This document shows, piece by piece, positions 1 through 33,377 of a stretch of 33,616 nt of DNA. A program made the position numbers and the translations under genes. Numbering within the stretch: position 1 is the stretch's first letter; each line of letters opens with the position of its first letter. Source of the stretch: a virus (taxonomy: Duplodnaviria > Heunggongvirae > Uroviricota > Caudoviricetes). Below the pieces are notes generated by a model. That model did not search any database and had not been told where the DNA came from. It saw only the letters and a program-made list of their open reading frames with translations. The stretch covers positions 1 to 33,616 of the IMG/VR virus record IMGVR_UViG_2778261222_000001. One strand, given 5' to 3'.

Positions 1-726
1 TCACTTCGGGTATGGCTGAATCCTGAATAGCTTAGTGTTTAGTCGCTTTTTTGCGCGCTTATTCAGGAACCTGATGTAGCGATACTGATTAAATTTGTGC
101 GCCACAGCCCGCTCCTTATTAGCCCGCAAATACACGCCTCGTTGTCCTCCGCGTTTAATCGCGTTCATCGTTATCTCGTGATACCACTCGCCGTTCAGTT
201 CGTAGAACGTGCTTTCATGGCTGCCAATAAAATCAAAATTCGAAGCCTGATATACCACGCCAGCACGTCCGCAGCGTTCGTCTGCAAAGGACTGAACCCA
301 CTCCACTGACGGATACAGTAACCTGATGGTTTTCAGCGCGTAGCTGATGGCCCGTGATTCAGAGTTGCGGGGCATATCATCATGTAACCACATGCGGTTC
401 AGTTCCATATAGCCCCGGTTATCCGTTTCAAGCACGACCCGACGCCCTGAGTTGGGGTTAAGGGCATATCCCCACTGAAGAACGCCAACCAGATCACGTC
501 CGCTGAATACGCCCAGATGCAGGTAGGAGTTATTCACAAAACGGCGGGAATAGTGTTTTGTCTGAATGATTGTGCGGGCCAGCCAGCAGGATATGGTTTC
601 AACGCGCAGTTCCCTTGAACCATAGCCGACAATACGGCCTTCATACTCAATAACGCAGGGTTTTGTCAGAATGCGTGATTTCTTCTCTTTTCCCACAATA
701 CAGCTCCGTGGGATGCTCTTTGGCAT
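1..726 (-). CDS. mom: Mom-like DNA modification protein (adenine modification, anti-restriction)
   Basis: Terminal position after com as in Mu; ORF 1..738 opens with a TTG, first ATG at 724-726; stop codon is at window positions 1-3; 5' end overlaps the com 3' end as in Mu. Confidence 0.8.
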
Positions 727-832
727 TCGATATGACAATGTAACGTTTACAGCGAGGACATTTGATTTCTATATGCTTAAAGCCTCCTTTAAACAGTAAT
801 TTATTGCAGTTTTTACAGCGAACAGAGTCCAT
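647..832 (-). CDS. com: Com zinc-finger translational activator of mom
   Basis: Translation from the internal ATG at 830-832 gives [15 protein letters not shown]...CPRCKR..., which matches my recollection of Mu Com (Cys4 zinc finger, about 61 aa); AGGGGGAA Shine-Dalgarno 5 nt upstream; overlaps the mom start. Confidence 0.9.
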
Positions 833-859
833 GATTCCCCCTGTGTAAACCAGATACAA

Positions 860-954
860 TCGCCCAGAGGGCTGGGGGATATTTAATCATAATTGATGCA
901 AACAGACGATCGATATGATGATATCGATCGTCATAAACTATACAAAATGATTGT
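860..954 (-). promoter_or_regulatory. Putative com-mom promoter/operator region with a GATC-containing palindrome
   Basis: 95-bp intergenic region upstream of com; inverted repeat at 905-932 (gacgatcgata / tatcgatcgtc arms) carrying two GATC sites at 908-911 and 926-929. Confidence 0.4.
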
Positions 955-1521
955 TTAATCGCCTGATGTGAACGCTCTTACCTCGTCCAGGGTGGACAGC
1001 AGGGAAAGCTGCGCTTTCATCTCTCGCTGGCGCTGATAAATTTCATCATTGCGATCAACCTGCGCCTGAACCATTGCAGTAAGCAGCTCATCCAGTTGTT
1101 GCATTGACAACTTTACCTGCTGATTTTCCGCATCGCACCATACCATGGTTTTCCATGCCGTGACTGATTTTGCTGACATCACCACCGTGTAAAGACGGGC
1201 TATCGAATCCGGTCCCCCGTTCCAGCTATGACCGTTCCATTCAAAAATAAATGGCTGCGCCTCCTGCTCTGTACGCCATGCTTCAATTTCCCGGCGTTTG
1301 GCTGCTTTTGCTGCTTCCAGCATCTCTGACGTGACGGTGAACGGCGTTATTTCTCCCCATTTGCCGCTTTGCAGCTCCTGCCAGACTCGCTGCCCTGTCT
1401 CTGCTGTATCCGTGGCAGTTGCCGTATACGGAACCGGTTCATCCATGCCATCAAACAACACCCCACAGTCAATCGCGCCATTTTCAAGATAACGCGCATT
1501 TTCGATGCGTTTTATTTCCAT
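955..1521 (-). CDS. Tail fibre assembly chaperone (second cassette)
   Basis: ATG at 1519-1521 lies 7 nt downstream of the fibre stop (1529-1531); about 188 aa; position directly after a fibre gene. Confidence 0.65.
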   Translation of the reverse strand: MEIKRIENARYLENGAIDCGVLFDGMDEPVPYTATATDTAETGQRVWQELQSGKWGEITPFTVTSEMLEAAKAAKRREIEAWRTEQEAQPFIFEWNGHSWNGGPDSIARLYTVVMSAKSVTAWKTMVWCDAENQQVKLSMQQLDELLTAMVQAQVDRNDEIYQRQREMKAQLSLLSTLDEVRAFTSGD

Positions 1522-1528
1522 AAAACAC

Positions 1529-2887
1529 CTACGCAATACGTATGAACAAACCAATCATGACACTGGCTGACCCGGCAGACCCGAGTTCATCGCCTGACAG
1601 TGCACGATATGACCCCGGCATACCACCACCAGAACCCCGCACATATACGGAAACGCTGCCGTTATATCCAACCCTGCTACCGGTCGTGCCGTAGCACATA
1701 AATTCAACCGCACTCAGGCGTGACCCCGGATAACTGTAACCGCGTTTTATCCGGCGGTCGGTGTCTGCGTCTCCCTTACCGTTATAAGCCGCCAGTACAA
1801 GACTGCCTGCACCGTACCAGCCGTCCGTGGTACCGGGAGCAATACCGGACAGAAGAGAGATAATGTCCTGTGAGGTAATCTTCAGATTTTCCCAGCCAGT
1901 CAGATAACCATTACCTGTTGTCCAGTAGCGGTTGTAATAAATATCGCCATTAATACCGTAGAAAATAATGGCCTTTGCTGTATATCGCGGCTCCGGTGGA
2001 TTATTGCGTGCCTCAACCCACCGGATGCGGACCATCCCGTTAAACAACACACCTCCGGATATGATTTTACTGTCACCCTCAACAAAATATTCACCCGGCG
2101 TCGCATTCCTTACCCAGGACAGAAAATCATCCTCTGTGTTAAAACGGATACGCTCTGCGGGCAAAAAAATATGCCCAAAACCAAATGCGCCAGGTGTCGC
2201 CAGACGCCCTTCAGTCCGGTCACGAATGTCGCTCTGTGGCGTCATTGTGGCAGCGCTTTTCAGTCCAAGATTAGCACGGGATTCCTGCTGAGCCTCTTCA
2301 CCTTCATCAGCCAGCTCTGATAAACGATTCGCCGTTTTCAGTGTCGCAGATAACGCAGTATCAATATCTGCTCTGGCCTGCTCTGCACCGGATGCGGCCT
2401 TTTTCGCGGCGTCGGCGTTCTGCTGAACACCTTCCGCCAGTTTTTTTACCTCTTCTTTTGCACGGGCGGCAGCGTCTGCATGTTGCCCTGCCTGTCGTTC
2501 GCTTTCTGTTGCCGCTTCCGCGCTCTGCTGCGCCTGTTGCGCCAGTTCCCCGAATTTTTTCAGCGCTTCCGGGCGCAGGTCAATATCGGTTGCACCCAGA
2601 AAATCATTCAGCGAACCGTCCGTTGAATCTTCATAAACGCGAATGACGCCGATTTCTGAAAGGCGCTGTGCGCTCTGTGTCAGGCGAACACTGTATACAC
2701 CCGGCAGAACGGGGAAGTCATACTCCCCGCTCTGTGTGGTGACGTGGCTGAAAACGCCTTTCAGAATCCCTGCACGGTTGTGCAGGGAGGTCAGTGTAAT
2801 GGTTGCGCCGCCCAGCGGTTCTCCCGTGGGCGTTTTAATCACACCTTTAAGCTGCGGCATCGGGACGCTCCGGCCAGTTGATGGCAT
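1529..2887 (-). CDS. Side tail fibre protein, lambda Stf-like N-terminus
   Basis: N-terminal region ...GVIRVYEDSTDGSLNDFL matches my recollection of the lambda Stf / prophage tail-fibre N-terminal domain (...TITVYEDSQPGTLNDFL); followed by an Ala/Gln-rich coiled coil and a Gly/Tyr-rich distal domain. Start may be the internal ATG near 2860. Confidence 0.75.
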   Translation of the reverse strand: MPSTGRSVPMPQLKGVIKTPTGEPLGGATITLTSLHNRAGILKGVFSHVTTQSGEYDFPVLPGVYSVRLTQSAQRLSEIGVIRVYEDSTDGSLNDFLGATDIDLRPEALKKFGELAQQAQQSAEAATESERQAGQHADAAARAKEEVKKLAEGVQQNADAAKKAASGAEQARADIDTALSATLKTANRLSELADEGEEAQQESRANLGLKSAATMTPQSDIRDRTEGRLATPGAFGFGHIFLPAERIRFNTEDDFLSWVRNATPGEYFVEGDSKIISGGVLFNGMVRIRWVEARNNPPEPRYTAKAIIFYGINGDIYYNRYWTTGNGYLTGWENLKITSQDIISLLSGIAPGTTDGWYGAGSLVLAAYNGKGDADTDRRIKRGYSYPGSRLSAVEFMCYGTTGSRVGYNGSVSVYVRGSGGGMPGSYRALSGDELGSAGSASVMIGLFIRIA

Positions 2888-3377
2888 TAAAGGAGGCTTC
2901 GTCAGTAACGGTGCTTAAATCCAGCGCCTTTACCGCTTTGATATATGCCATCCACTGCGTAAGACGGACTTTGTCATCGTCGCTGATGGTGCCCAGCTCC
3001 AGCTCGGTTTTCCAGTCGGAGGTGATGTCCTTTGCTTCATTCAGCAGGCGCTGGCGTTGTTTTTCCGCCAGTTGCGAATAATCAACAGGAACAGGCAGCA
3101 CTTCGCCGTCCTGGTAATACCAGCAGGCTTCAATTCCAAAACCTTCCGGCAGCTCGTCCACTTCCACAATGGTGAAGCCAGCCGGATAAAGACGGGACAC
3201 GTCTTCCGCCATCGAATAAATCACGCCGGTTTCCGGGTGAATACACAATTTGTATTTCTTCGTGAATTTATCCAGTGATTCATAAAAATCCTGTCCGTCT
3301 TCACTGCGGAAATACTGAATATCCTTACCATAAGGCATATTTTCCGGGTAATAACGCGAAACGTTTCTTAGTTCCAT
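2847..3377 (-). CDS. Tail fibre assembly chaperone (Tfa-like)
   Basis: ATG at 3375-3377 preceded by AAGGAG 7 nt upstream; C-terminus ...NAINWPERP resembles the lambda Tfa C-terminus; follows the Mu-type fibre. Confidence 0.75.
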   Translation of the reverse strand: MELRNVSRYYPENMPYGKDIQYFRSEDGQDFYESLDKFTKKYKLCIHPETGVIYSMAEDVSRLYPAGFTIVEVDELPEGFGIEACWYYQDGEVLPVPVDYSQLAEKQRQRLLNEAKDITSDWKTELELGTISDDDKVRLTQWMAYIKAVKALDLSTVTDEASFNAINWPERPDAAA

Positions 3378-3391
3378 TGTTTTCTCCTTAA

Positions 3392-4387
3392 TTAACCTGA
3401 TACGGTGCGCCATGAACCATTGATATAAATCTGCGCGGATTTGTAATACACACCACCGATGTTATCCGCCGAACTTCTTCCCGTATCCTGGACATAAATT
3501 CCCGACAACTGACAGCCTGAAGGCGCGCGGAACGTCCAGGTGATTTCGTTACCACCCGGGTTGTAAAACACCTCATTGGTGTACTGAAAATTACGCACAG
3601 CGCCGGAATCGGTGGTGCTGATGGTGATATCGCTGGAGCCATCAAACGGTACATTGTTAATCCTGCGAGGGGTTTGTAGTTTTGTGGCAGTTGCTGCGTT
3701 GAAGCTGTCTTTTGATGTAAACACCTGCGCCCATTCAGACCAGGCTGCATCAGTGGTATCACGCCTTGAGCGAATATAAACCGGAGCATGCGCACCGCTC
3801 GTGCCACTCCAGCCAATCAGCAGTTCGCCTTCGCCAGATGCTGCCGCACCTTTCAGATGCAGAACATTGCCATAAGCAGTGGGATAGCCGTTGCTGTACG
3901 CTTCATACATCTGAAGTCCTGCATAGCCTTGTGCTGTACCGCTTAATGCTGTCACCGGCCCTTTTGATAAAAGGATGTCTGGTGACAGGCCGATTGCTTT
4001 AATAAATTCACTGGCGCTGTTTTTCCCGAGAATACTGCGCACAAAAGCACTGAGCGGCGTTAATGCCATTGTGTCTTCGCCGGTAAAATACGGGAACGTA
4101 TTATTCTGACCGGTTAATCCGGCAATAGCACCGGCTGAACCACTGTTCGTAATAAACAGTTTTTTCAGCGCTGTCATAATCTGGTTGGTGGTATTTTTAT
4201 CCGGTTTGATATTTGCCTGCCGGAGAATTTCCAGCAGTTCAGACTGAATAATATTAAACCAGTCCGGCCCCGGATAAGTGGGCGGAATACCGTTCCCGCC
4301 TTCGGTAAAATAAAGCGTTGTTTTGCTTAATTCAGCCGCGACAGGTGGCATCACCGGCACACCCGTCGGATTATCAACATGAAACAT
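3392..4387 (-). CDS. Tail fibre protein, Mu S-type N-terminal domain
   Basis: N-terminus MFHVDNPTGVPVMPPV... resembles the Mu/P2-type fibre baseplate-attachment domain as I recall it; GGAGAA Shine-Dalgarno upstream; 331 aa. Confidence 0.7.
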   Translation of the reverse strand: MFHVDNPTGVPVMPPVAAELSKTTLYFTEGGNGIPPTYPGPDWFNIIQSELLEILRQANIKPDKNTTNQIMTALKKLFITNSGSAGAIAGLTGQNNTFPYFTGEDTMALTPLSAFVRSILGKNSASEFIKAIGLSPDILLSKGPVTALSGTAQGYAGLQMYEAYSNGYPTAYGNVLHLKGAAASGEGELLIGWSGTSGAHAPVYIRSRRDTTDAAWSEWAQVFTSKDSFNAATATKLQTPRRINNVPFDGSSDITISTTDSGAVRNFQYTNEVFYNPGGNEITWTFRAPSGCQLSGIYVQDTGRSSADNIGGVYYKSAQIYINGSWRTVSG

Positions 4388-17530: not shown

Positions 17531-17556
17531 GAAAAAAAGCCGGATTTACCGGCTTC
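17531..17556 (-). terminator. Rho-independent terminator (minus strand), copy 1 of a repeated element
   Basis: On the minus strand: 7-bp stem aagccgg, loop taaat, stem ccggctt, followed by seven T; lies between the F-like gene and the protease gene. Confidence 0.6.
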
Positions 17557-23172: not shown

Positions 23173-23384
23173 GTTTTCCTCCTGCGTTCCCGCATCTGTT
23201 GACAGTCAATACAGGTCACCACATCCGGCAGCGCCGCAAGGCGCTGTACCGGAATAACGTTCCCGCAGTCATTGCAGAAGCCCCGGCTGTGGGACGCTTC
23301 TTTTGTCCGCGTCTGCCAGGCTTTAACGACGCTCTGACGCTCGTTCAGAACCACTTCACTGATGCGGTCGATTTCGTCGGTCAT
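23157..23384 (-). CDS. TraR/DksA-family C4 zinc-finger protein
   Basis: CNDC-x17-CIDC spacing (CxxC-x17-CxxC) near the C-terminus; 75 aa. Confidence 0.7.
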   Translation of the reverse strand: MTDEIDRISEVVLNERQSVVKAWQTRTKEASHSRGFCNDCGNVIPVQRLAALPDVVTCIDCQQMRERRRKTCPGK

Positions 23385-25250: not shown

Positions 25251-25276
25251 TAAAAAAAGCCGGATTTACCGGCTTC
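25251..25276 (-). terminator. Rho-independent terminator (minus strand), copy 2 of the repeated element
   Basis: Same aaaaaaagccggatttaccggcttca sequence as at 17531-17556; hairpin plus seven T on the minus strand, between the moron and lys. Confidence 0.6.
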
Positions 25277-25297: not shown

Positions 25298-25795
25298 TCA
25301 GTTAACTTTACGGGCAGAACATGTAGTCTTCATTACTGAACGTTCAATTTTTATCTTCCAGCCATTTACTGTTTTTTCGACAGGATCATCTTCAGCTTGC
25401 TTTAAATTTTCAACTTGCATGAAATTCAGTGGGGCTGGGGTATCATCGTCCCATGATGTCGGGCGAACATAATCAGGGACAACAAAAGGCTCAAAAACAG
25501 TTTCACATAAAGCAGACGTCATTTGAGCGAACTCGTCGCTATCGGGGCGAACCGGTCCTGTAACATACTGCATTTTTATGTTGATTTCGTTATCTCGCAC
25601 AGACGCCTTTAAATCCTGATATACACCTAAGTTAAATCCTTTAAACTCAGCAATGGCAGCGTCACCTTTACCATACCAGTCGGTATAGTCAACGGATGTT
25701 TTTTTCTGAAAAACATCTTTGACTTTTTGCTGGAATGTATCCTCCGCTTGTACAGTAGTAACAGTTAGTAAAAGAATAAGGGGAAGATATTTCAT
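25298..25795 (-). CDS. Secreted protein of unknown function (moron)
   Basis: N-terminal signal peptide MKYLPLILLLTVTTVQA followed by ED; visibly AT-rich codon usage compared with flanking genes; ATGA overlap with the mor stop. Confidence 0.6.
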   Translation of the reverse strand: MKYLPLILLLTVTTVQAEDTFQQKVKDVFQKKTSVDYTDWYGKGDAAIAEFKGFNLGVYQDLKASVRDNEINIKMQYVTGPVRPDSDEFAQMTSALCETVFEPFVVPDYVRPTSWDDDTPAPLNFMQVENLKQAEDDPVEKTVNGWKIKIERSVMKTTCSARKVN

Positions 25796-26193
25796 TGTTC
25801 GTCCTTAAATAGTTGCATTTGATATTTTCCACGCTCCAGTCGGCGCATTCTTTTGATGGCCTGATATACCGTTTTGTATGTCACTTTGTAACGCTGCACC
25901 AGCTCCGCTACGTTTTTCCCATCAAAATCACGCCAGATGCGCATGTCTCTGATAAGATTTTCCAGTATTTTCCCTTTCGGAACATATACCTGAATCCCAC
26001 CGATATGATTGCAAATCGCCACTACCAGCTCAAGGGAGTGGGCAGGGTTAACTCCAAGCCTTATCAGCTCCTGTCGCAACAGAGCATTCAGCTCAGCCAG
26101 TAAAGATGGAAATCCCGATTTTTCCTGAACATCATCAAAATATTCAAGGATACTGTCGTCCTGATAATCACCAAATAAATCCTGCTCTTTCAT
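25792..26193 (-). CDS. mor: Mor/C-family transcriptional activator (Mor by position)
   Basis: 133 aa; C-terminal region YKTVYQAIKRMRR fits the Mor/C helix-turn-helix as I recall it; follows gemA as mor does in Mu. Confidence 0.7.
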   Translation of the reverse strand: MKEQDLFGDYQDDSILEYFDDVQEKSGFPSLLAELNALLRQELIRLGVNPAHSLELVVAICNHIGGIQVYVPKGKILENLIRDMRIWRDFDGKNVAELVQRYKVTYKTVYQAIKRMRRLERGKYQMQLFKDEQ

Positions 26194-26741
26194 AGAACTA
26201 TTCTCCCGCTGTTTCTGGCGCGGGCATACGCACTGGTCAGTGCATCATATCCGCGCAGTTCCCGCCCGGTTTCGCTCACAGGTAAAGGCATGCCATGTCG
26301 GGCAAAGGCTTCCCGGATGCAGCGCATATGCCACTGTTTGAGCGTTTCGAGCACAACCTGCAACGATTCCCCATGACACCAGGCCAGCGTGGAAACACCC
26401 TGACCACCATTACGTCTGGCCGTCAGGCGTTCAACGTATTTGTCCAGCGCGGCGTCGCTGATATCGGATACGAAACCATCAAGAAACATCTGCTGCCAGA
26501 TTTTATAAATCTTCTCGCGCGGTGTGACATGCCCCTTAAAGCGACGGCGGGGATGTTTATTCTGCTTTTTAAAACCGCGCTCTTTCATGGCATCGAGCAC
26601 TTGTTCCAGTTGTGCAACGGACAGCTCGCGGCAACTGGTTTTGCCCGTGCACTGCACCAGAAAGGCGCGGTAAGTGTCATCGTCGAGGTGCAACTCCCGG
26701 CGGGCAACATGAATTAATTTAATCAGGGATGTGCGACTCAT
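26190..26741 (-). CDS. gemA: GemA-like regulatory protein
   Basis: Position immediately upstream of mor; ATG at 26739-26741 (track ORF begins at a GTG at 26786). Confidence 0.65.
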   Translation of the reverse strand: MSRTSLIKLIHVARRELHLDDDTYRAFLVQCTGKTSCRELSVAQLEQVLDAMKERGFKKQNKHPRRRFKGHVTPREKIYKIWQQMFLDGFVSDISDAALDKYVERLTARRNGGQGVSTLAWCHGESLQVVLETLKQWHMRCIREAFARHGMPLPVSETGRELRGYDALTSAYARARNSGRIVL

Positions 26742-27108
26742 TTTGCCCCATCTCCTTAATGCAGTGTTTTTCGACCCATGCCACACGAGCAGAATTCAGG
26801 TGGCATCTGTCATGTAGGCATTCATCATGGTAGTGCACGTTATCTACATTAAATGGCAGGGATTCATCCAGCCCACTCGCGACAAAATCCGCATGTAATT
26901 GTTCTAGCGCAGCCTCGCTGTCTGCTCCGATTGATTCAAAATAGTCATAAACATTGGCGCATAATCCGACTCCCCGAATAAACCCTTCCCCTTCCGTTTC
27001 TTGCGCTCCGTTTTTTAACCACTGGTTATAGGCGACATAAAAATCATAAAGATGTTTTCTGGTGCTGGCGGATGCGGATTTAATTTCATTTTTCTCTGCG
27101 TTATTCAT
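26719..27108 (-). CDS. Hypothetical early protein with His/Cys-rich motif
   Basis: 129 aa; HYHDECLHDRCH motif suggests metal binding. Confidence 0.45.
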   Translation of the reverse strand: MNNAEKNEIKSASASTRKHLYDFYVAYNQWLKNGAQETEGEGFIRGVGLCANVYDYFESIGADSEAALEQLHADFVASGLDESLPFNVDNVHYHDECLHDRCHLNSARVAWVEKHCIKEMGQNESHIPD

Positions 27109-27283
27109 TTCTTAATACCTCTTCGCAATAAAAGATTTCATTGGGATAATGTTTTTGTATGCGCTCCATCACCTGCATACATGCCTGCTCGGTGGGCCAG
27201 ATTTTTTCCGTTACAGGGATGGCATCACAGGCATCATTCCCGCAGGTGCCAACCAGCAGGACAAAGCCAATTGACTTAATCAT
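27101..27283 (-). CDS. Small Cys-rich protein with N-terminal hydrophobic signal-like segment
   Basis: ATG at 27281-27283 overlaps the upstream stop (ATGATTAA); MIKSIGFVLLVGTCGNDAC..., five Cys in about 60 aa. Confidence 0.4.
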   Translation of the reverse strand: MIKSIGFVLLVGTCGNDACDAIPVTEKIWPTEQACMQVMERIQKHYPNEIFYCEEVLRNE

Positions 27284-27818
27284 GTTCACTGACTTCCTGT
27301 GTTGCGGCCGGAGCTGGTGAATAATCAAGAATGAGATAGCGCATGACGTGGTCGGTGATATTCCAGCCACTGGAACCACAAATAAAGCGCCCCAGCCGGA
27401 TATCGATATACGCCATCACAAAACGGGGCATTCCCTGTTTGCACATCTCGTCATCCACTTCAGCAACGATGTAAACCGACTCGCAGGTCAGTACGCCTGT
27501 CGCAAATTCTTTTGCCAGTGCCGGAATGGCATTGCCTTCCAGCCAGGGCAAAGAGCGGCGGAACGCGCACCATTGAGCATCATCAACATCGGGGTGTTCC
27601 GTTGTTGCGTTTCGTCTTACAGGAGGCGTCGGACGAGGGCGCGGAACGTCATAAAAGCCATTACATTCAGTCAGCAATCCGGCATCAACCGCATCGCGCA
27701 GGAAATACACCATTGAGGAAGGTGGCATCTTCATTTTTTCAGCCAGAACGCCACAGGTCAGACGGCCGTAAGCGCGTAATAATGTACTGACACCGTTCAG
27801 AATTTTTGCATCAATCAC
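27276..27818 (-). CDS. Hypothetical early protein, possible N-terminal winged helix
   Basis: 180 aa. Confidence 0.45.
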   Translation of the reverse strand: MIDAKILNGVSTLLRAYGRLTCGVLAEKMKMPPSSMVYFLRDAVDAGLLTECNGFYDVPRPRPTPPVRRNATTEHPDVDDAQWCAFRRSLPWLEGNAIPALAKEFATGVLTCESVYIVAEVDDEMCKQGMPRFVMAYIDIRLGRFICGSSGWNITDHVMRYLILDYSPAPAATQEVSEHD

Positions 27819-27821
27819 CGG

Positions 27822-28427
27822 TTATTCCTCCGTCAGCGCCACAAATTCAGAATGTTTAATGCGCTGGCATTCGGCGGGAACCGGTCCCTTAACCTCACCG
27901 CCAAGAAGGCGTACTTTAAACAAAATGCCGAATCCATCACGGCCGTGGTGCATTTCCCACACTGATTTGATGTCAAACAGGTCAACTTCGGCATCTACAT
28001 TAAGTTCATTACACAGCCAGCCCGGAAAATCCGGGTGTTTTTTGAGCTGATTTTCACAGTCCCGGATGAGCTTCCCGTACTCACGGCCTGCCGGTATTGT
28101 CATATCCGGCATTGCGCCCCATAACTGAATATCACCAATGAAAAGTGTCTTTGATTTAGCCTCCCATCCTTCCGGTGGTAAACGGTTAAACCAGACACGC
28201 GTAACCCTCTCAGGCCCTTTGTCACCAGACAAAGACACAGCGGTTGCATTCACTGATTGCTGTAATAACGCAATAACCTCACCACGCTTAACAGAAACGT
28301 CTTTCAGCCAGCGAATCGTATAAGCGTTAGCGGCTGTGTCACTCAGTTTAAAATAAGCACATGCTGTCATTTTCATTCTCTCCGGTTCTGATTCAGGCGC
28401 GAGTAGTCCCCTGACGTATCGCGCCAT
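27822..28427 (-). CDS. Hypothetical early protein
   Basis: 201 aa; true start may be an internal Met. Confidence 0.45.
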   Translation of the reverse strand: MARYVRGLLAPESEPERMKMTACAYFKLSDTAANAYTIRWLKDVSVKRGEVIALLQQSVNATAVSLSGDKGPERVTRVWFNRLPPEGWEAKSKTLFIGDIQLWGAMPDMTIPAGREYGKLIRDCENQLKKHPDFPGWLCNELNVDAEVDLFDIKSVWEMHHGRDGFGILFKVRLLGGEVKGPVPAECQRIKHSEFVALTEE

Positions 28428-28467
28428 AATTAAACGAATGTGAATTAATTAAATATTCGTGGTGGTA

Positions 28468-28992
28468 TTAAATACCGGCTTCCTGTTCAAACGGAATAAT
28501 AGAAAAATCTTCAATGCCCGATTTAACTGTAATTCCGGCAACACCTGCGACCGCTTTCGGTTCCAGTAAAATCGCTTCCTTGTTGATTTCCTGTTTCGTG
28601 CGAATAAAGCGTTGCAGGCCAAGACGCTCCAGCGTTTCCATCACCGCATCCACACCGCGAATGCTTACCGATGGTGGGCGCAGACGCCATGACACATCGC
28701 CGGTTACCAGGTTTGCCGTCTTCACCTTGCCGCCGTTCGTCAGTTCGTCACGGTTCGCTTCACACCATCCCTGAACGCCTTTTGAAAGGGTTTCGATACT
28801 GGTTTTAAGCGGCGCAATCTGCGAGGCGTATTTCTCCGTAATCTCGGCGATAGCGTCATTCATTTCCGTTTCAAGTCGTGCCGCTTCGCGTTGCAGGTCA
28901 CCAATCCGGCGGATATCACATACCACGGCATCGCGGGATTGCGGAACATAAGCCGCTGCGGCACTCTTGATTCGTTTTGCTGGTTTAGCCAT
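28468..28992 (-). CDS. gam: Gam host-nuclease inhibitor (Ku-like DNA end-binding protein)
   Basis: 174 aa; MAKPAKRIKSAAAAYVPQ...IPFEQEAGI matches my recollection of Mu Gam over its full length; AGGAG Shine-Dalgarno upstream. Confidence 0.9.
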   Translation of the reverse strand: MAKPAKRIKSAAAAYVPQSRDAVVCDIRRIGDLQREAARLETEMNDAIAEITEKYASQIAPLKTSIETLSKGVQGWCEANRDELTNGGKVKTANLVTGDVSWRLRPPSVSIRGVDAVMETLERLGLQRFIRTKQEINKEAILLEPKAVAGVAGITVKSGIEDFSIIPFEQEAGI

Positions 28993-29012
28993 ATAAATAA
29001 AGCTCCTGTTAA

Positions 29013-29312
29013 TTAATATTCGCTGTATACAATGCTGGATACAGCACGATTGCTTAATTCCATCTTTTGGGCAATGGCATGAATAGCCAGCCCTTCTTTA
29101 TAAAGTTCACGACACAAATATTTGTCGTGCTCACTGATTCGATATGCACACAACGATATTCCGTGCCTTCTGGCATGTGCCTGTAGGGCGGCTGGGGCAA
29201 CGTTCAGTTTTTTCGCCATTTCCTCGACGGTCATTTTCCCGACACTGGCTTCGATAAATTCCCGGTCTTCGCGTGACCAGCGTTTACGCTTACACATCAT
29301 TCCGGTCACCAC
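29013..29312 (-). CDS. Small helix-turn-helix DNA-binding protein
   Basis: 99 aa with two HTH-like segments (MTVEEMAKKLNVAPAALQAH and GLAIHAIAQKMELSNRAV). Confidence 0.45.
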   Translation of the reverse strand: MVTGMMCKRKRWSREDREFIEASVGKMTVEEMAKKLNVAPAALQAHARRHGISLCAYRISEHDKYLCRELYKEGLAIHAIAQKMELSNRAVSSIVYSEY

Positions 29313-29732
29313 TCAGTACAACATGGGGTCACGCAGTGATGCCGGAATATGCCGCAGCGATAACTGAACCGCTTTCAGGGCAAGGGAAGAATACGTCCCC
29401 TGCGTCCAGCCTTTCGCCATTTGCCGGTAATCGCGCCAGATGTTCTGCCACTGCTCCCGTGCGTCCGGGTCTGATGCGCTGATGTATTCGCGGTCCATGA
29501 CGTATTCCCATAAATCCACATTGAAGGCATTGCCAAACGTAATGGCGCGGAATACCGCCTCCCCGCAATAACGCGCACAAATGCTGTAATGGTCGAATGC
29601 AATCAGGTAAGTCTTTTCGCCATATCCCTCAACTTCGCGCGCGCAAATAAACTCGCGTAAGTCTCCGCCATTGTTATTACGCATTTTGATTCGAATTAAT
29701 GCCTGGATTTCGTTTCTGATTTTGGCGTTCAT
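29313..29732 (-). CDS. Hypothetical early protein
   Basis: 139 aa. Confidence 0.45.
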   Translation of the reverse strand: MNAKIRNEIQALIRIKMRNNNGGDLREFICAREVEGYGEKTYLIAFDHYSICARYCGEAVFRAITFGNAFNVDLWEYVMDREYISASDPDAREQWQNIWRDYRQMAKGWTQGTYSSLALKAVQLSLRHIPASLRDPMLY

Positions 29733-29746
29733 TGTCAGCGTTCCTT

Positions 29747-30010
29747 TCAGTGACGTGTTCCTTCAACTGTCGTTTCTGTGACACTGCCACCCGAAATGAC
29801 GCCATCATTTTTCAGTATTTCAATGGCCTCATGGGCTGATTCGCGAACGATATCCCGGCTTTTTTCCAGAACCAGTAACGCTATCGCACCAGCAAGCGTG
29901 TACTCATCACCATCCAGTTCTGCGCTGTGGTCCACGTTAACATTGGTGCGTAAATGCTGCCCTTTAACTTCAGATGTCACATTTTTGATTTCGATAATGA
30001 CTTTTGCCAT
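29747..30010 (-). CDS. Hypothetical early protein
   Basis: ATG at 30008-30010 with GAGGA Shine-Dalgarno (track ORF extends to 30064). Confidence 0.45.
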   Translation of the reverse strand: MAKVIIEIKNVTSEVKGQHLRTNVNVDHSAELDGDEYTLAGAIALLVLEKSRDIVRESAHEAIEILKNDGVISGGSVTETTVEGTRH

Positions 30011-30042
30011 TTTGTTATTCCTCACAAATAAATAATTCGTTA

Positions 30043-30270
30043 TTAACGCCAGATAATCTGGCAACCATTAAGGCGGGCCGTCCATACGGAACGGGCAACC
30101 CCTGATTTATGCTCCATAATCCTGACAGCGTTTCTGACCAGCTCCGGTGGCGGGCAGGTAATTTCAAGCACCGGGCGGGCCACGCCCAGCCAGGATTCGT
30201 TGACGTGGCTGCCGCGCTCCTGTAACCAGCTCTTTACTTCCGTTGCCATTTTGATATTCCGTGACATCAT
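30043..30270 (-). CDS. Hypothetical small protein in the position of Mu kil
   Basis: 75 aa; begins 12 nt after the B stop. Confidence 0.4.
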
Positions 30271-30282
30271 GATTTATGCCCC

Positions 30283-31215
30283 TTACCACCAGTTCAGTAA
30301 CTTCGGGTTGCTGTAAACCTCTTTAAAAGCCGCTTTAATGTAGCCTTTGGATAACGGAACACCTTTCCCGCTGGCTGCCAGCCATGCCTGATTCAACGTA
30401 TGAGTTAATACACGTAATGCACCTGGTTTTTCCGCTATGCTCTGCATGAGTGATAATTCATCTTCACCCTCAATGCCCCAGGCTTTCGCAATTGCCACCA
30501 CATCAGCCTTTTTGGCTTTACGCAGTTGTTTTGTTCTGGCGAAACGGCTGAACAAACGCGCAAGGTCATCCGTTCCCCGATGTGTGGCTTTGGCTAATTG
30601 GCTTGGGTTACCAATCAATACCATCCCGACGCCTGTTGCATCCTGAATGGCGCGCAACTGCTCCAGCCCGTCCATGCTCAGGTGGTCAGCTTCATCCACA
30701 ATCACCAGACCGCGTGTGCCGTTCAGTTTTTTGCGAATGGCACGGGTCAGCGCGCCTTTACTCCTTTGCGGATTATCAATTCCCAGCGCGTCTGCCAGTT
30801 CCAGCAGGCACTCGGTCACTGTTGAGTGCGCAGGGGAAAGGGTCACCATCCAGGTATTAGATACACGGTTACTGTATTCACGGGCCGCAACGGTTTTACC
30901 AACACCCGGTACACCAACCAGAACGCTGATACAGCCCATAACACGCACGGTCTGAAACAGCTCGCGCAAATCACGGAGGGTTTGTGTTTCCACAAGTTGC
31001 GGTGCACCTGGTAATTCCTGGCTTTTCTGCCAGTCCTGATGCCACACCAGTAATTTGTCATGCATCCCTTCGGTATCGCCTTTGTAACGACCTTTGCGAA
31101 GTTCCGATAGCGTGGCCTCTGACACGCCCGCCTCTTTAGCAATAACACCCTGAGTTTTTACGCCGTCGGAAATCAGCGCATTAATCGTATTGAAAACATC
31201 ATTAATATCGGTCAT
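30283..31215 (-). CDS. B: Transposition protein B (AAA+ ATPase, target DNA activator)
   Basis: 310 aa; Walker A motif GVPGVGKT; N-terminal HTH; follows the transposase; GAGGAAG Shine-Dalgarno. Confidence 0.9.
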   Translation of the reverse strand: MTDINDVFNTINALISDGVKTQGVIAKEAGVSEATLSELRKGRYKGDTEGMHDKLLVWHQDWQKSQELPGAPQLVETQTLRDLRELFQTVRVMGCISVLVGVPGVGKTVAAREYSNRVSNTWMVTLSPAHSTVTECLLELADALGIDNPQRSKGALTRAIRKKLNGTRGLVIVDEADHLSMDGLEQLRAIQDATGVGMVLIGNPSQLAKATHRGTDDLARLFSRFARTKQLRKAKKADVVAIAKAWGIEGEDELSLMQSIAEKPGALRVLTHTLNQAWLAASGKGVPLSKGYIKAAFKEVYSNPKLLNWW

Positions 31216-31289: not shown

Positions 31290-33377
31290 TCAGGCCAGCG
31301 GATCATCCTGTTCCTGTATGGCTGCAAGTTTCTGCAAACCCAGCCTGAAATCGCGTTCATAATCTTCGTCGTAATCCTCCTCATAATCCTGTTGCTGGAT
31401 GGTTACCGTATTACCAACCGGGCGATAAACATTATCCAGCCAGGGTTCAGTCTGTTTGTGCTCCAGAATCTGAATGCCTTCATCCTCAGCATCACGAATT
31501 TTTTCCTCAGCGCGTTTGCGCATTCCTTTAATACGCTGCTGTTGTTTGTGATATTCAGCACTGACAGCAAAGGCTGCGCGTTTATTGCCGTTCCATATCG
31601 CCTCACAGATAAAGCTGCCGTCCTTGCGACGTACCGTAATTCGCTCGGCGTCATGAATGTCATAACTGATAAGCACTTTGCGACCGTGTTCGTCACGCAA
31701 CTCCGGCGCGTAGTAAATATTGTTCAGCCACTGAATTTCGCAGCGTCTTACCGGTCGTTCCACCATCGGGCGGAACATGTCGCGCAGCTCAAGATCACTC
31801 AGCCACTCAATTTCGGTGTCTTCTTCTGCTAGGCGTTTTTTTCTGAACTCTGCCGGGCTGTAATGCCGCCCGTTCGGTTTCATCGGCAGCTCAGAATGTG
31901 GGCGGTTGTTGTACCATTCCACGCCTTCACGAATAGCCTCAATAAGCTCCGCCCACGATGGTAGCTCGCGCATTGCAGCTTTCTGTCGGTCGTTCAGAGG
32001 CTTGTCCTGTTGCATGGCGTTAAACGCTGAACGCAGATCACGGTTAAGTACACGCAACGATTCCCGGTCAGCACCCTTGCCAAAATAGGTGCGATACCTC
32101 CTGGCTATACGCATTGGCAGCGTCCGGTTCAGGCGTTCAATAATGCCGCGCCCCTGTGGATTACCGGCAATACCTGTTGGGTGTTTAATCCCCAGGCGGG
32201 GCAGAATACCCACGACCTCTTTGTCCAGCATGTCAGCCGTTTCACCAGAACCGTTATCCGAGTAATACAGAAACGGTTTTCCGTGGTTGCGAATGCCGTG
32301 CTGTATCGCACCGGCAACGGCGAACACGTTCTCGGCAAGGTCAAGACTCCAGCCAACAACAAACCGGGTTCCACCGTCGATCACAAATGTGACTTCCGGT
32401 GAGAATGGACGCCCGTGGATCGGATGTGCACATTTCAGCTTCATACCGTGACCGTCACCAATCCAGACATAATTCACCGGCATAGCTGCCCAGTCGCGAC
32501 GGGTGAATCCTTCAAGCTGACGGTATTCACTGCCGGTAACACGGCCTTTTTGTTTCACCACTTCCGGCAATTTTTTCATGGCATAACGAACCACATCGTA
32601 AGAGGGCATCACCTCTATCATGTAGGGTTCGTCTGCATGGCGACGCTGCCATTCCGCGACAAAATCTTCGTAGGCTTCTGACATAGATCTGCCATTCGCC
32701 TGGCGATACTGCGCCAGAAATTCAGGCAGCCAGCTAATTTCTTCCGGTTTTATTTCGTCGCGTTTTCCCGGTGCCAGTAACAGCAGCCGTTCTGCGGCGT
32801 TCTGTGATTGGTTGTATTTCAGCACCCACTGATAAAGCGGGTCACGACTGATGGTGCGATTAGCTCCACGTTTTGCATTGGCGGTAGCTGTGGCCTGTTG
32901 CAGGCGTTCCGGTAGTTCACCTTTACGGGCTTTTTCGACAAGATAGTTAATGGCTTTCAGCCGCCCGAGATTACCGTCGCTTTCCAGCTTCAGTACTTCC
33001 ACCACCAGCGCAGCCCTTGCTTCAGATACCCGACGCTGATTTTCGGTCAGCGTATTCAGGCGTTCTTCCATCAGTTGTGGCGAACCGCGATATGCTTCGA
33101 TTGCCTGGACAGCATCAGGATTGCGTGTTTTTCTGACAACAGCTTTCACTTCAGAAACATCGTTCTCTTTAGCCACCAGTTGTTCCACATAGCGTTCACG
33201 CAGTGCCTTTTGTGTTATTTCCGGCAGACAATCAATGTGGTATTCAATGGCTTTTGTACCTGCGCGTTTACGTCGGAGATGTTCTGATGAAGCCAGTTTT
33301 TTTATGGCGTACCTCACACCCTGCGCGCTTCCCGGCATACCTGGTAGCCCTACGAGTTCGTTTACTGACACAAACAT
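31290..33377 (-). CDS. A: Mu-type DDE transposase A
   Basis: 695 aa; position after ner and before B; size comparable to MuA. Confidence 0.9.
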   Translation of the reverse strand: MFVSVNELVGLPGMPGSAQGVRYAIKKLASSEHLRRKRAGTKAIEYHIDCLPEITQKALRERYVEQLVAKENDVSEVKAVVRKTRNPDAVQAIEAYRGSPQLMEERLNTLTENQRRVSEARAALVVEVLKLESDGNLGRLKAINYLVEKARKGELPERLQQATATANAKRGANRTISRDPLYQWVLKYNQSQNAAERLLLLAPGKRDEIKPEEISWLPEFLAQYRQANGRSMSEAYEDFVAEWQRRHADEPYMIEVMPSYDVVRYAMKKLPEVVKQKGRVTGSEYRQLEGFTRRDWAAMPVNYVWIGDGHGMKLKCAHPIHGRPFSPEVTFVIDGGTRFVVGWSLDLAENVFAVAGAIQHGIRNHGKPFLYYSDNGSGETADMLDKEVVGILPRLGIKHPTGIAGNPQGRGIIERLNRTLPMRIARRYRTYFGKGADRESLRVLNRDLRSAFNAMQQDKPLNDRQKAAMRELPSWAELIEAIREGVEWYNNRPHSELPMKPNGRHYSPAEFRKKRLAEEDTEIEWLSDLELRDMFRPMVERPVRRCEIQWLNNIYYAPELRDEHGRKVLISYDIHDAERITVRRKDGSFICEAIWNGNKRAAFAVSAEYHKQQQRIKGMRKRAEEKIRDAEDEGIQILEHKQTEPWLDNVYRPVGNTVTIQQQDYEEDYDEDYERDFRLGLQKLAAIQEQDDPLA

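What the first reader, a model, noticed from the sequence alone, without database searches (positions are those of the whole stretch)
1..832. com-mom anti-restriction module present
Mom-family enzymes modify adenines in phage DNA and give broad resistance to restriction; Com is needed to translate mom. Presence of both, with the characteristic overlap, means this prophage likely carries hypermodified DNA when induced. The Mom homolog here (about 241-245 aa) is somewhat longer than I recall for Mu Mom.
Basis: partly seen in the sequence, partly recalled or inferred. Interest (0 to 1): 0.5.

Follow-up and report, generated by a model that had tools for sequence, protein, structure and literature searches.

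The report
Mu-type com–mom DNA-modification operon
The first 832 bases carry a close copy of phage Mu's well-studied com–mom gene pair, which decorates phage DNA adenines to escape restriction enzymes; this is an ordinary, already annotated feature of an E. coli Mu-like prophage.

Summary
Confirmed and ordinary. On the minus strand, mom ends at base 1 and com runs 832..647. They overlap as in phage Mu. Mom is 95-96% identical to Mu Mom, matches the crystal-structure sequence 8BV8 (E 1e-154), and keeps every residue shown by mutagenesis to matter. Com is 73-74% identical and keeps its four zinc cysteines.

The Mu translational switch is intact. A short hairpin (713-726) has the Com-recognition loop CC-N3-GAG. 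Next to it a hairpin (692-712) buries the mom Shine-Dalgarno sequence and GUG start.

Mu has the same upstream ATG, and RefSeq lists Mu Mom as 241 aa. The start used in Mu is the GUG, giving 231 aa, and that GUG is conserved here.

The exact proteins are already in RefSeq as "protein mom" and "Com family" regulator. The source is E. coli GCA_002232555.1.

One nuance: the prophage is a mosaic. It lacks Mu's late activator C and the invertase gin. It keeps two of Mu's three Dam (GATC) sites upstream of com, at the same 18-nt spacing. The promoter-proximal part differs, so how com-mom is transcribed here is unresolved.

The parts
1..696 (-). mom coding sequence from the conserved GUG start (231 aa). 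Mom is a GNAT-fold (Gcn5-related N-acetyltransferase) tRNA(Gly)-dependent adenine N6 aminoacyltransferase.
   Evidence: Pfam PF25680 gives 252.6 bits. It is 96% identical to Mu Mom. PDB 8bv8 matches at E 1.2e-154 over 1-231. All mutagenesis-defined residues are identical. Of 62 nt differences from Mu, 51 are at third codon positions.
697..738 (-). In-frame upstream extension of the mom ORF (ATG 724-726 gives 241 aa; TTG 736-738 gives 245 aa). It is probably not the start used.
   Evidence: Mu has the same ATG, and RefSeq uses it for Mu Mom. The ATG is GTG in several relatives. No Shine-Dalgarno sequence precedes it, whereas GGAG lies 7 nt before GUG 696. The literature places the mom start at the GUG inside the TIS (translation inhibition structure) stem (PMC6483171).
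647..832 (-). com coding sequence (61 aa): zinc-ribbon translational activator of mom.
   Evidence: Pfam PF10122 gives 30.5 bits. PHROG 13819 gives E 4e-43. It is 74% identical to Mu Com, with C6, C9, C25 and C28 conserved and a one-residue deletion. The exact sequence is on at least 1000 public contigs.
713..726 (-). Com-target RNA hairpin AUGC-CAAAGA-GCAU. The loop carries CC(N)3GAG at 716-723.
   Evidence: The fold is predicted identically for the window and for Mu. The stem is 100% pairable in 9 distinct variants, and only the three N positions of the loop vary. The motif equals the SELEX (in vitro selection)-defined Com site 5'-CC(N)2-3GAG-3' in a hexaloop (PMC6483171).
692..712 (-). Translation inhibition structure (TIS): hairpin CCCACGG-AGCUGUA-UUGUGGG, with the mom SD GGAG (704-707) and the GUG start (694-696) in and next to the stem.
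   Evidence: Predicted in the window and in Mu. All 7 pairs are kept in 9 variants, and the single stem change is C-G to U-G. Variable columns are 8 of 13 in loops against 2 of 22 in stems, Fisher p=0.0017.
837..841 (-). com Shine-Dalgarno sequence (GGGGG), 4 nt upstream of the com ATG at 830-832.
   Evidence: Read directly from the sequence. Conserved in window-type relatives.
905..932 (.). Perfect 12-bp inverted repeat holding two Dam sites (GATC 908-911 and 926-929), 18 nt apart. Homologous to GATC sites 1 and 2 of Mu's Pmom upstream (OxyR/Dam) region.
   Evidence: the repeat finder I2. The same 18-nt spacing is found in Mu and in all 30 upstream variants examined. GATC is otherwise 2.7-fold under-represented in the window: 44 sites against 117±10 expected. 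The RNA hairpin is about -14.5 kcal/mol, z -3.0.
933..942 (-). Conserved TATAG element 7 nt upstream of the first GATC-containing tetramer. It sits in the register of an OxyR ATAG-N7-CTAT-type half-site.
   Evidence: TATAG plus ACGATCGA is conserved between the Mu-type and window-type upstream regions. Assigning it to OxyR is an inference from Mu literature cited in PMC3378877.
833..904 (-). Promoter-proximal region and com leader. It diverges from Mu Pmom: no T6 run, no TAAGAT -10, no third GATC, only a partial TTAT-N6-ATAT dyad at 879-892. The promoter is not identified.
   Evidence: Alignments. No sigma-70-like site was found in 600-1200. The region is conserved among 16 distinct window-type relatives.

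Best explanation
This is a functional orthologue of the phage Mu com-mom operon, sitting at the right end of a Mu-like transposable prophage of E. coli.

Shown by sequence:
- mom encodes a GNAT-fold enzyme essentially identical to Mu Mom.
- com encodes the small zinc-ribbon protein.
- The two genes overlap by 50 nt.
- The mRNA around the mom start can form the same two adjacent hairpins as in Mu.

Inferred from Mu experiments:
- Late in lytic growth the com-mom mRNA is made.
- The mom Shine-Dalgarno sequence and GUG start (694-696) are locked in the TIS hairpin (692-712).
- Com binds the CC-N3-GAG hexaloop of the neighbouring hairpin (713-726) and opens the TIS, so Mom is translated.
- Mom then takes glycine from host Gly-tRNA(Gly), puts it on N6 of adenines in double-stranded phage DNA (loose SASNY context), and the glycyl group rearranges to N6-carbamoylmethyl-dA. 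This makes packaged DNA refractory to many restriction enzymes.

Transcription:
- It is probably still gated by Dam methylation and OxyR through the conserved pair of GATC sites at 905-932.
- The activator step must differ from Mu, because this prophage has a Mor orthologue but no C gene, and the C-box, T6 run and -10 part of Pmom are replaced.
- Either read-through from the late tail operon or an unidentified activator-dependent promoter in 833-904 supplies the transcript.
For: - Identity to Mu: DNA is 88-89% identical over 1-822. Mom is 95-96% identical and Com 73-74%.
- Family and structure matches: Pfam Mom and Zn_ribbon_Com both score above their cutoffs. PDB 8bv8, 'Methylcarbamoylase mom', matches at E 1.2e-154.
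- Functional residues: Y28, W48, H58, Y59, R111, S124, D149, R151, Y159 and W181 are all identical.
- Purifying selection: 51 of 62 nt differences from Mu in mom are at third codon positions.
- RNA switch: both hairpins are predicted in the window and in Mu. In 9 distinct variants, 100% of cells pair and variation is confined to loops (Fisher p=0.0017). The loop motif equals the experimentally defined Com site (PMC6483171).
- Chemistry: mechanism taken from PMC13219725.
- Dam sites: the spacing is conserved with Mu, against a GATC-depleted background.
- Missing Mu genes: tblastn finds no C and no gin. Mor is 63% identical to Mu Mor and 32% to C. The STEC719 relative has the same architecture.
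- Read-through is possible: no strong minus-strand terminator lies between 17.5 kb and com.
- The phage lineage looks active: an identical transposase is found on 22 contigs, and the two places read have different flanks.
Against: - No expression or chemistry data exist for this prophage.
- The Mu-type C-binding site, T6 spacer and -10 are absent, and no sigma-70-like promoter is detectable upstream of com. A silent cassette therefore cannot be excluded by sequence alone.
- Only 2 of Mu's 3 GATC sites remain.
- The hairpins show no compensatory (double) substitutions. Their support is conservation plus Mu experiments, not covariation.
- Folding z-scores of the 41-71-nt RNA segments are unremarkable, -0.3 to -1.4.
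Confidence: 0.88

Rival explanations
1. The Mom here is a genuinely longer variant (241-245 aa) with an extra N-terminal segment that Mu Mom lacks, possibly altering function.
For: The mechanical ORF is 245 aa from TTG and 241 aa from ATG. GenBank AF083977 lists Mu Mom as 231 aa.
Against: Mu carries the same in-frame ATG ten codons upstream of its GUG, and RefSeq lists Mu Mom as 241 aa. The residue numbering of the 2026 structure paper only fits a 241-aa Mu protein. The GUG with GGAG 7 nt upstream is invariant, while the ATG is GTG in some relatives. The 10-residue truncation is fully active in Mu.
Confidence: 0.03
2. The cassette is present but transcriptionally silent in this lineage. It was acquired from a Mu-type phage without its C activator, so induced virions carry unmodified DNA.
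For: There is no C homologue and no Mu-type C box, T6 run or TAAGAT. No sigma-70-like promoter lies upstream of com. No Mor-box lies upstream of com; the box occurs only at 17532-17555 and 25252-25275.
Against: Purifying selection on mom is strong: 8 aa changes against 62 nt changes. The Com site, the TIS and the whole window-type upstream region are conserved across 16 distinct relatives and 48 complete E. coli genomes. Mu literature describes mom as cytotoxic when mis-expressed, so a useless copy would be expected to decay.
Confidence: 0.08
3. Sub-rival on the transcription step only: com-mom has no promoter of its own here. It is expressed purely by read-through from the Mor-dependent late operon that starts near 17.5 kb, and the 905-932 palindrome acts as a partial terminator or methylation-sensitive roadblock.
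For: Only chance-level terminator-like matches lie on the minus strand between 17536 and 833. com starts 122 nt after the upstream tail gene. The palindrome folds to about -14.5 kcal/mol with a weak U-tract. No sigma-70-like site was found.
Against: The upstream region keeps homology to Mu's promoter-distal control region, and 833-904 is conserved among relatives even where the upstream gene differs: DUF4376, an SGNH hydrolase operon, or tail-fibre remnants. That pattern suggests a self-contained control region travelling with the cassette.
Confidence: 0.3

Closest known systems
com-mom operon of Escherichia phage Mu (also D108 and SfMu)
   Same: Same gene order, a 50-nt overlap and position at the right end of the transposable phage. 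Mom is 95-96% identical and Com 73-74%. The Com hairpin with its CC-N3-GAG loop and the TIS hairpin with the GUG start are the same. Two upstream GATC sites have the same 18-nt spacing, and the preceding TATAG is present. Homology with Mu continues about 45 nt past the mom stop.
   Different: There is no gin invertase or G segment upstream. The third GATC, the C-binding dyad, the T6 spacer and the TAAGAT -10 of Pmom are replaced. The phage has no C gene. The right-end transposase-binding repeats differ, TATCTTGAA-type.
Window-type com-mom cassettes in other E. coli Mu-like prophages (for example STEC719, RM13752, plasmid pCFSAN004178P_01)
   Same: The upstream region is the same, with two GATC sites and no gin. 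A single Mor-family gene is present, and tail-fibre or DUF4376 genes sit upstream. Identity is 87-95% over com plus its upstream region. PGAP annotates them as 'protein mom' and 'Com family'.
   Different: The gene immediately upstream of com varies: DUF4376, an SGNH hydrolase set, or truncated fibre genes. There are small differences in the 833-870 segment.
tRNA-using GNAT enzymes FemX and TacT
   Same: GNAT fold, and an aminoacyl-tRNA as co-substrate or substrate. This is a property of Mu Mom reported in PMC13219725 and carried over here through 96% identity.
   Different: Mom's acceptor is adenine N6 in dsDNA, and it has an HTH-like insertion at residues 175-209. No direct sequence comparison with FemX or TacT was made here.

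Membership tests
Mom (PF25680; tRNA(Gly)-dependent adenine N6 aminoacyltransferase of phage Mu) | Full-length sequence match to the family profile above the curated cutoff | tested here: met
   252.6 bits against a cutoff of 27.1, covering profile positions 1-202 of 202. PHROG 1384 gives E 2.9e-82.
Mom (PF25680; tRNA(Gly)-dependent adenine N6 aminoacyltransferase of phage Mu) | GNAT fold with the Mom-specific HTH-like insertion (residues ~175-209) | tested here: met
   Gap-free alignment to the crystallised Mu Mom sequence 8bv8 at E 1.2e-154. Only D178N and V209A differ within the insertion. The fold is inferred from 96% identity; no model was built.
Mom (PF25680; tRNA(Gly)-dependent adenine N6 aminoacyltransferase of phage Mu) | Residues needed for activity: R111, S124, D149, R151 (essential); W48, H58, Y59, Y159, W181 (strongly reduced when mutated) | tested here: met
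   All are identical in the 241-aa numbering. The residue list comes from PMC13219725.
Mom (PF25680; tRNA(Gly)-dependent adenine N6 aminoacyltransferase of phage Mu) | Produces 6-NcmdA on dsDNA using Gly-tRNA(Gly) | not testable with these tools
   Needs nucleoside LC-MS or an in vitro assay.
Com (PF10122; Mu translational activator) | Small protein with an N-terminal CxxC...CxxC zinc ribbon matching the family profile | tested here: met
   30.5 bits against a cutoff of 22.9. PHROG 13819 gives E 4.3e-43. C6, C9, C25 and C28 align to the Mu cysteines.
Com (PF10122; Mu translational activator) | Gene immediately upstream of mom, with its 3' end overlapping the mom start | tested here: met
   com is 647-832 and mom starts at GUG 696, a 50-nt overlap as in Mu.
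Com (PF10122; Mu translational activator) | Cognate RNA target: a short hairpin with 5'-CC(N)2-3GAG-3' in a hexaloop, next to a hairpin that sequesters the mom SD and GUG | tested here: met
   Hairpins at 713-726 and 692-712. Every stem position pairs in all 9 variants, and the loop motif is kept. The motif definition comes from PMC6483171.
Com (PF10122; Mu translational activator) | [quoted passage not shown] | not testable with these tools
   Needs EMSA, toeprinting or reporter assays.
Mu-type Pmom transcriptional control (Dam/OxyR gate plus C activator) | Cluster of three GATC sites upstream of the promoter (OxyR binds when they are unmethylated) | tested here: inconclusive
   Two of the three are present, at 908-911 and 926-929, with the Mu spacing of 18 nt and the upstream TATAG. 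The third is GCATCA here. OxyR binding is not testable.
Mu-type Pmom transcriptional control (Dam/OxyR gate plus C activator) | Phage-encoded C protein (Mor/C family) as obligatory activator | tested here: not met
   tblastn with Mu C finds only the Mor orthologue at 25792-26193, which is 32% identical to C and 63% to Mor. The STEC719 relative also has a single Mor-family gene.
Mu-type Pmom transcriptional control (Dam/OxyR gate plus C activator) | C-binding dyad overlapping a poor -35, a T6 run in the spacer, and a TAAGAT -10 | tested here: not met
   The alignment shows this segment replaced. Only a partial TTAT-N6-ATAT remains at 879-892, with no T6 and no TAAGAT. Pmom features were taken from PMC3378877 and PMC4461284.

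The most novel reading that the evidence does not exclude
The com-mom cassette moves as a self-contained module between otherwise divergent Mu-like phages. In this C-less lineage its promoter-proximal half has been rewired to a different activation input (the phage's only Mor-family protein, a host factor, or late-operon read-through). The Dam/OxyR methylation gate and the Com/TIS translational lock were kept. On this reading the two negative safety layers are the indispensable part of controlling a toxic enzyme, and the positive activator is interchangeable.
Probability: 0.4. Interest if true: 0.3.

Novelty: already known. Interest (0 to 1): 0.12.

Why it matters
It matters little beyond correct annotation.

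It tells us that this E. coli prophage, if induced and if the operon is transcribed, should package DNA carrying N6-carbamoylmethyl-adenine. Such DNA resists many restriction enzymes. That is relevant for anyone trying to cut, sequence by methylation-aware methods, or restrict this phage.

The small added value is comparative. The cassette is one of two Mu-type segments in a mosaic genome whose transposition and structural modules are only 27-50% identical to Mu. It also occurs without Mu's C activator. That gives a natural test case for which parts of the famous multilayer mom control are obligatory.

Tried and rejected
1. A longer Mom variant was rejected. Mu has the same ATG, and RefSeq lists Mu Mom as 241 aa.

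2. I looked for a second Mor/C-family gene and for gin, using Pfam on the early-region ORFs and tblastn of Mu C, Mor and Gin against the window. Only the Mor orthologue was found.

3. The 165-aa ORF between mor and the endolysin was considered as a C substitute. It has a signal peptide, no Pfam or PHROG hit and no similarity to C, so it is not a transcription factor candidate.

4. I searched for the phage's Mor-box upstream of com. It occurs only at 17532-17555 and 25252-25275.

5. I tested a possible com-leader hairpin, a C-rich box pairing with the com SD. It is conserved, but the covariation term is -0.02 and there are no compensatory changes, so I dropped it.

6. The covariation test of the Com and TIS hairpins found no double substitutions, only two pair-preserving single changes. 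Support is therefore conservation, not covariation.

7. The sigma-70 promoter scan upstream of com found nothing. My manual attempts to place -35 and -10 elements were unconvincing and are not reported as features.

8. An exact-pattern scan of genome contigs with the com-upstream 40-mer found nothing. The source was identified through the exact Mom protein instead.

9. NCBIfam gave no hit for either protein.

10. My early impression that com-mom was the only Mu-like DNA in the window was wrong. That query stopped at 25 kb, and a full comparison shows a second Mu-type block at 25979-30284.

11. No structure prediction was run. A 96%-identical solved structure exists, so a model would add nothing.

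Full report
**1. Observation.** The minus strand of 1-832 holds two overlapping ORFs.
- The mom frame has its stop at 1-3. It is open back to GTG 696 (231 aa), ATG 726 (241 aa) and TTG 738 (245 aa, the mechanical ORF).
- com runs from ATG 832 to its stop at 647-649 (61 aa).
- Pfam assigns the first ORF to the Mom family (252.6 bits, cutoff 27.1, full profile). It assigns the second to Zn_ribbon_Com (30.5 bits, cutoff 22.9).
- PHROGs gives 'Mom-like DNA modification protein' and 'gpCom control of modification', the latter at E 4e-43.
- The DNA of 1-822 is 88-89% identical to the com-mom region of Mu, D108, SfMu and related phages.

**2. Mom.**
- Over the 231-aa core the protein is 96% identical to Mu Mom. 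Over 241 aa it is 95.4% identical.
- It matches the sequence of the solved Mu Mom structure 8BV8 end to end, E 1.2e-154.
- The 2026 structure and mechanism paper (PMC13219725) shows that Mom is a GNAT-fold enzyme. It transfers glycine from Gly-tRNA(Gly) to N6 of adenine in dsDNA. The glycyl group then rearranges to 6-NcmdA.
- That paper also reports that R111, S124, D149 and R151 are essential, and that W48, H58, Y59, Y159 and W181 strongly affect activity. An HTH-like insertion (about residues 175-209) is required.
- In the window protein every one of these residues is identical. The eleven differences from Mu are A3K, R8S, N9C, Q31R, K38R, V133T, D178N, V209A, R226K, K235R and V236I.
- Of 62 nucleotide differences in the 696-nt core, 51 are at third codon positions. 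That is the signature of purifying selection.

**3. The length question.** This is not a biological difference.
- Mu has the same in-frame ATG ten codons upstream of its GUG.
- GenBank AF083977 annotates the 231-aa GUG product. RefSeq NC_000929 annotates the 241-aa ATG product.
- The residue numbering of the structure paper fits only the 241-aa numbering, and its 'Δ10' construct is the 231-aa form.
- PGAP uses 241 aa for most E. coli copies and 231 aa for one.
- The start used in Mu is the GUG inside the TIS stem (PMC6483171).
- Here that GUG (694-696) is invariant and has GGAG 7 nt upstream. The ATG has no Shine-Dalgarno sequence and is GTG in several relatives.

**4. Com and the translational switch.**
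- Com is 74% identical to Mu Com. All four zinc cysteines are present and there is a one-residue deletion.
- RNA folding of the region around the mom start gives the same two adjacent hairpins for the window and for Mu. The first is AUGC-CAAAGA-GCAU (713-726). The second is CCCACGG-AGCUGUA-UUGUGGG (692-712), which holds the SD and the GUG.
- I collected 43 related loci from IMG/VR plus E. coli prophages, which gave nine distinct sequence variants of this segment.
- In all nine variants every stem position can pair. The only two stem substitutions are pair-preserving: A-U to G-U and C-G to U-G.
- The remaining variation lies in the loops: 8 of 13 loop columns are variable against 2 of 22 stem columns, Fisher p = 0.0017.
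- The three variable loop positions of the first hairpin are exactly the N positions of the experimentally defined Com site 5'-CC(N)2-3GAG-3' (PMC6483171).
- There are no compensatory double substitutions. The support is conservation plus the Mu experiments, not covariation.

**5. Transcriptional control region.** Upstream of com the homology to Mu weakens at about 822 but does not vanish.
- Thirty distinct upstream sequences fall into two classes.
- The Mu class has three GATC sites at -109, -91 and -78 from the com ATG. These are followed by the C-binding dyad, a T6 run and TAAGAT.
- The window class has two GATC sites at -97 and -79, with no T6 run and no TAAGAT. It has only a partial TTAT-N6-ATAT at 879-892.
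- Both classes share TATAG, the ACGATCGA...ATCGATCG pair and its 18-nt spacing.
- In the window the pair sits in a perfect 12-bp inverted repeat at 905-932.
- GATC is otherwise strongly depleted in the window: 44 sites against 117±10 expected.
- In Mu these sites are the Dam/OxyR gate (PMC3378877). I infer that the gate is retained here.
- No sigma-70-like promoter is detectable upstream of com.
- The window class occurs with at least 80% coverage in 48 of 5426 complete E. coli genomes.

**6. Context.** The source is E. coli GCA_002232555.1, contig NLUM01000002.1.
- The prophage ends 127 bp beyond the mom stop. It interrupts a Flag-2 flhA-like gene next to hicAB-yafL, and the flank is 100% identical to E. 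coli chromosomes.
- The window is a Mu-like transposable prophage with all genes on the minus strand. It carries MuA-like and MuB-like genes, Gam, GemA, Mor, a GH108 endolysin, terminase, sheath and baseplate.
- Compared with Mu it is a mosaic.
  - Mom is 95% identical.
  - The semi-essential early block (25979-30284) is 75-85% identical at the DNA level: Gam 93%, gp11 88%, GemA 81%, Mor 63%.
  - Structural proteins are 27-50% identical.
  - MuB is 44% identical, and MuA 29% over its C-terminus only.
- There is no C and no gin. The single Mor-family protein is a Mor orthologue.
- A Mor-box-like dyad plus T-run nearly identical to Mu's middle promoter Pm occurs exactly twice, upstream of the endolysin and of the head protease. 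It does not occur upstream of com.
- The related STEC719 prophage has the same layout.
- No strong minus-strand terminator lies between 17.5 kb and com. Read-through from the late operon is therefore possible.

**7. Mechanism.**
- Shown: gene identity, catalytic residues, the overlap, the RNA elements and the Dam-site pair.
- Inferred from Mu: Com opens the TIS, Mom momylates phage DNA late in infection using host Gly-tRNA(Gly), and the DNA becomes restriction-refractory.
- Unresolved: what drives transcription in a phage without C.

**8. Novelty.**
- The exact Mom protein is RefSeq WP_440939572.1, 'protein mom'. Its 90% cluster has 1295 members, and those listed come from Escherichia, Salmonella, Shigella and Cronobacter.
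- The exact Com sequence is on at least 1000 contigs.
- This is an already known, routinely annotated module.
- The only mildly new point is the C-less, gin-less lineage with a replaced promoter-proximal segment.

Noticed in passing
window 1-33616: GATC (Dam site) is strongly under-represented in the whole prophage: 44 sites against 117±10 expected from dinucleotide-preserving shuffles. All 100 shuffles had more.
   Followed up: partly
window 17532-17555 and 25252-25275 (minus strand): The element AAGCCGGTAAATCCGGCTTTTTTT occurs exactly twice, upstream of the head protease operon and of the endolysin. It is nearly identical to the Mor-binding dyad and terminator of Mu's middle promoter (AAGCCGGTTAATCCGGCTTTTTTT). 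With only one Mor/C-family gene and no C, this suggests a two-tier cascade in which Mor turns on late genes directly.
   Followed up: partly
window 25298-25795 (minus strand): A 165-aa ORF lies between mor and the endolysin. It has a clear signal peptide (MKYLPLILLLTVTTVQA) and no Pfam, PHROG or Mu match. It looks like a secreted moron sitting where Mu has its middle operon (E18-E20 and C).
   Followed up: partly
window 955-4387 (minus strand): Two consecutive tail-fibre sets lie on the same strand. The first is a fibre (3392-4387) plus a Caudo_TAP chaperone (2847-3413). The second is a lambda-Stf-like 'prophage tail fibre N-terminal' protein (1529-2887) plus a DUF4376 protein (955-1521). There is no invertase and no invertible G segment, unlike Mu.
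   Followed up: no
window 25979-30284: A second Mu-type block: 75-85% DNA identity to Mu's semi-essential early region (Gam 93%, gp9 86%, gp8 84%, gp11 88%, GemA 81% at the protein level). Transposase A (29%, C-terminus only), B (44%) and all structural genes (27-50%) belong to a different lineage. The genome is a mosaic.
   Followed up: yes
window 31290-33377; loci L053, L054: The identical 695-aa transposase is found on 22 public contigs. The two places read have different flanks: next to glpF/glpK in one and inside another phage's terminase region in the other. This is consistent with a recently active transposable phage.
   Followed up: partly
L002 6727-6853 (source contig, just outside the window beyond base 1): Right after the mom stop there is a terminator-like hairpin, GCAGCGGTTAAGGCCGCTGTTTTAT. 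It is followed by three or four TATCTTGAA repeats that differ from Mu's R1-R3 transposase sites. The prophage ends 127 bp after mom, inside a Flag-2 flhA-like gene.
   Followed up: partly
window 647-832 and RefSeq relatives: PGAP names Com 'Com family DNA-binding transcriptional regulator'. The experimental literature describes it as an RNA-binding translational activator, so the database name is misleading.
   Followed up: no
window 833-862: A C-rich box (UCCCCC, about 857-862) is complementary to the com Shine-Dalgarno sequence (GGGGGA, about 836-841) and could sequester it in a leader hairpin. It is conserved in relatives but has no covariation support (covariation term -0.02).
   Followed up: yes
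window 23173-23380: This apparent 208-nt 'intergenic gap' in my ORF list probably encodes a small TraR/DksA-type zinc-finger protein. A gene with that name is annotated at the equivalent place in the STEC719 relative. I did not verify this in the window.
   Followed up: no
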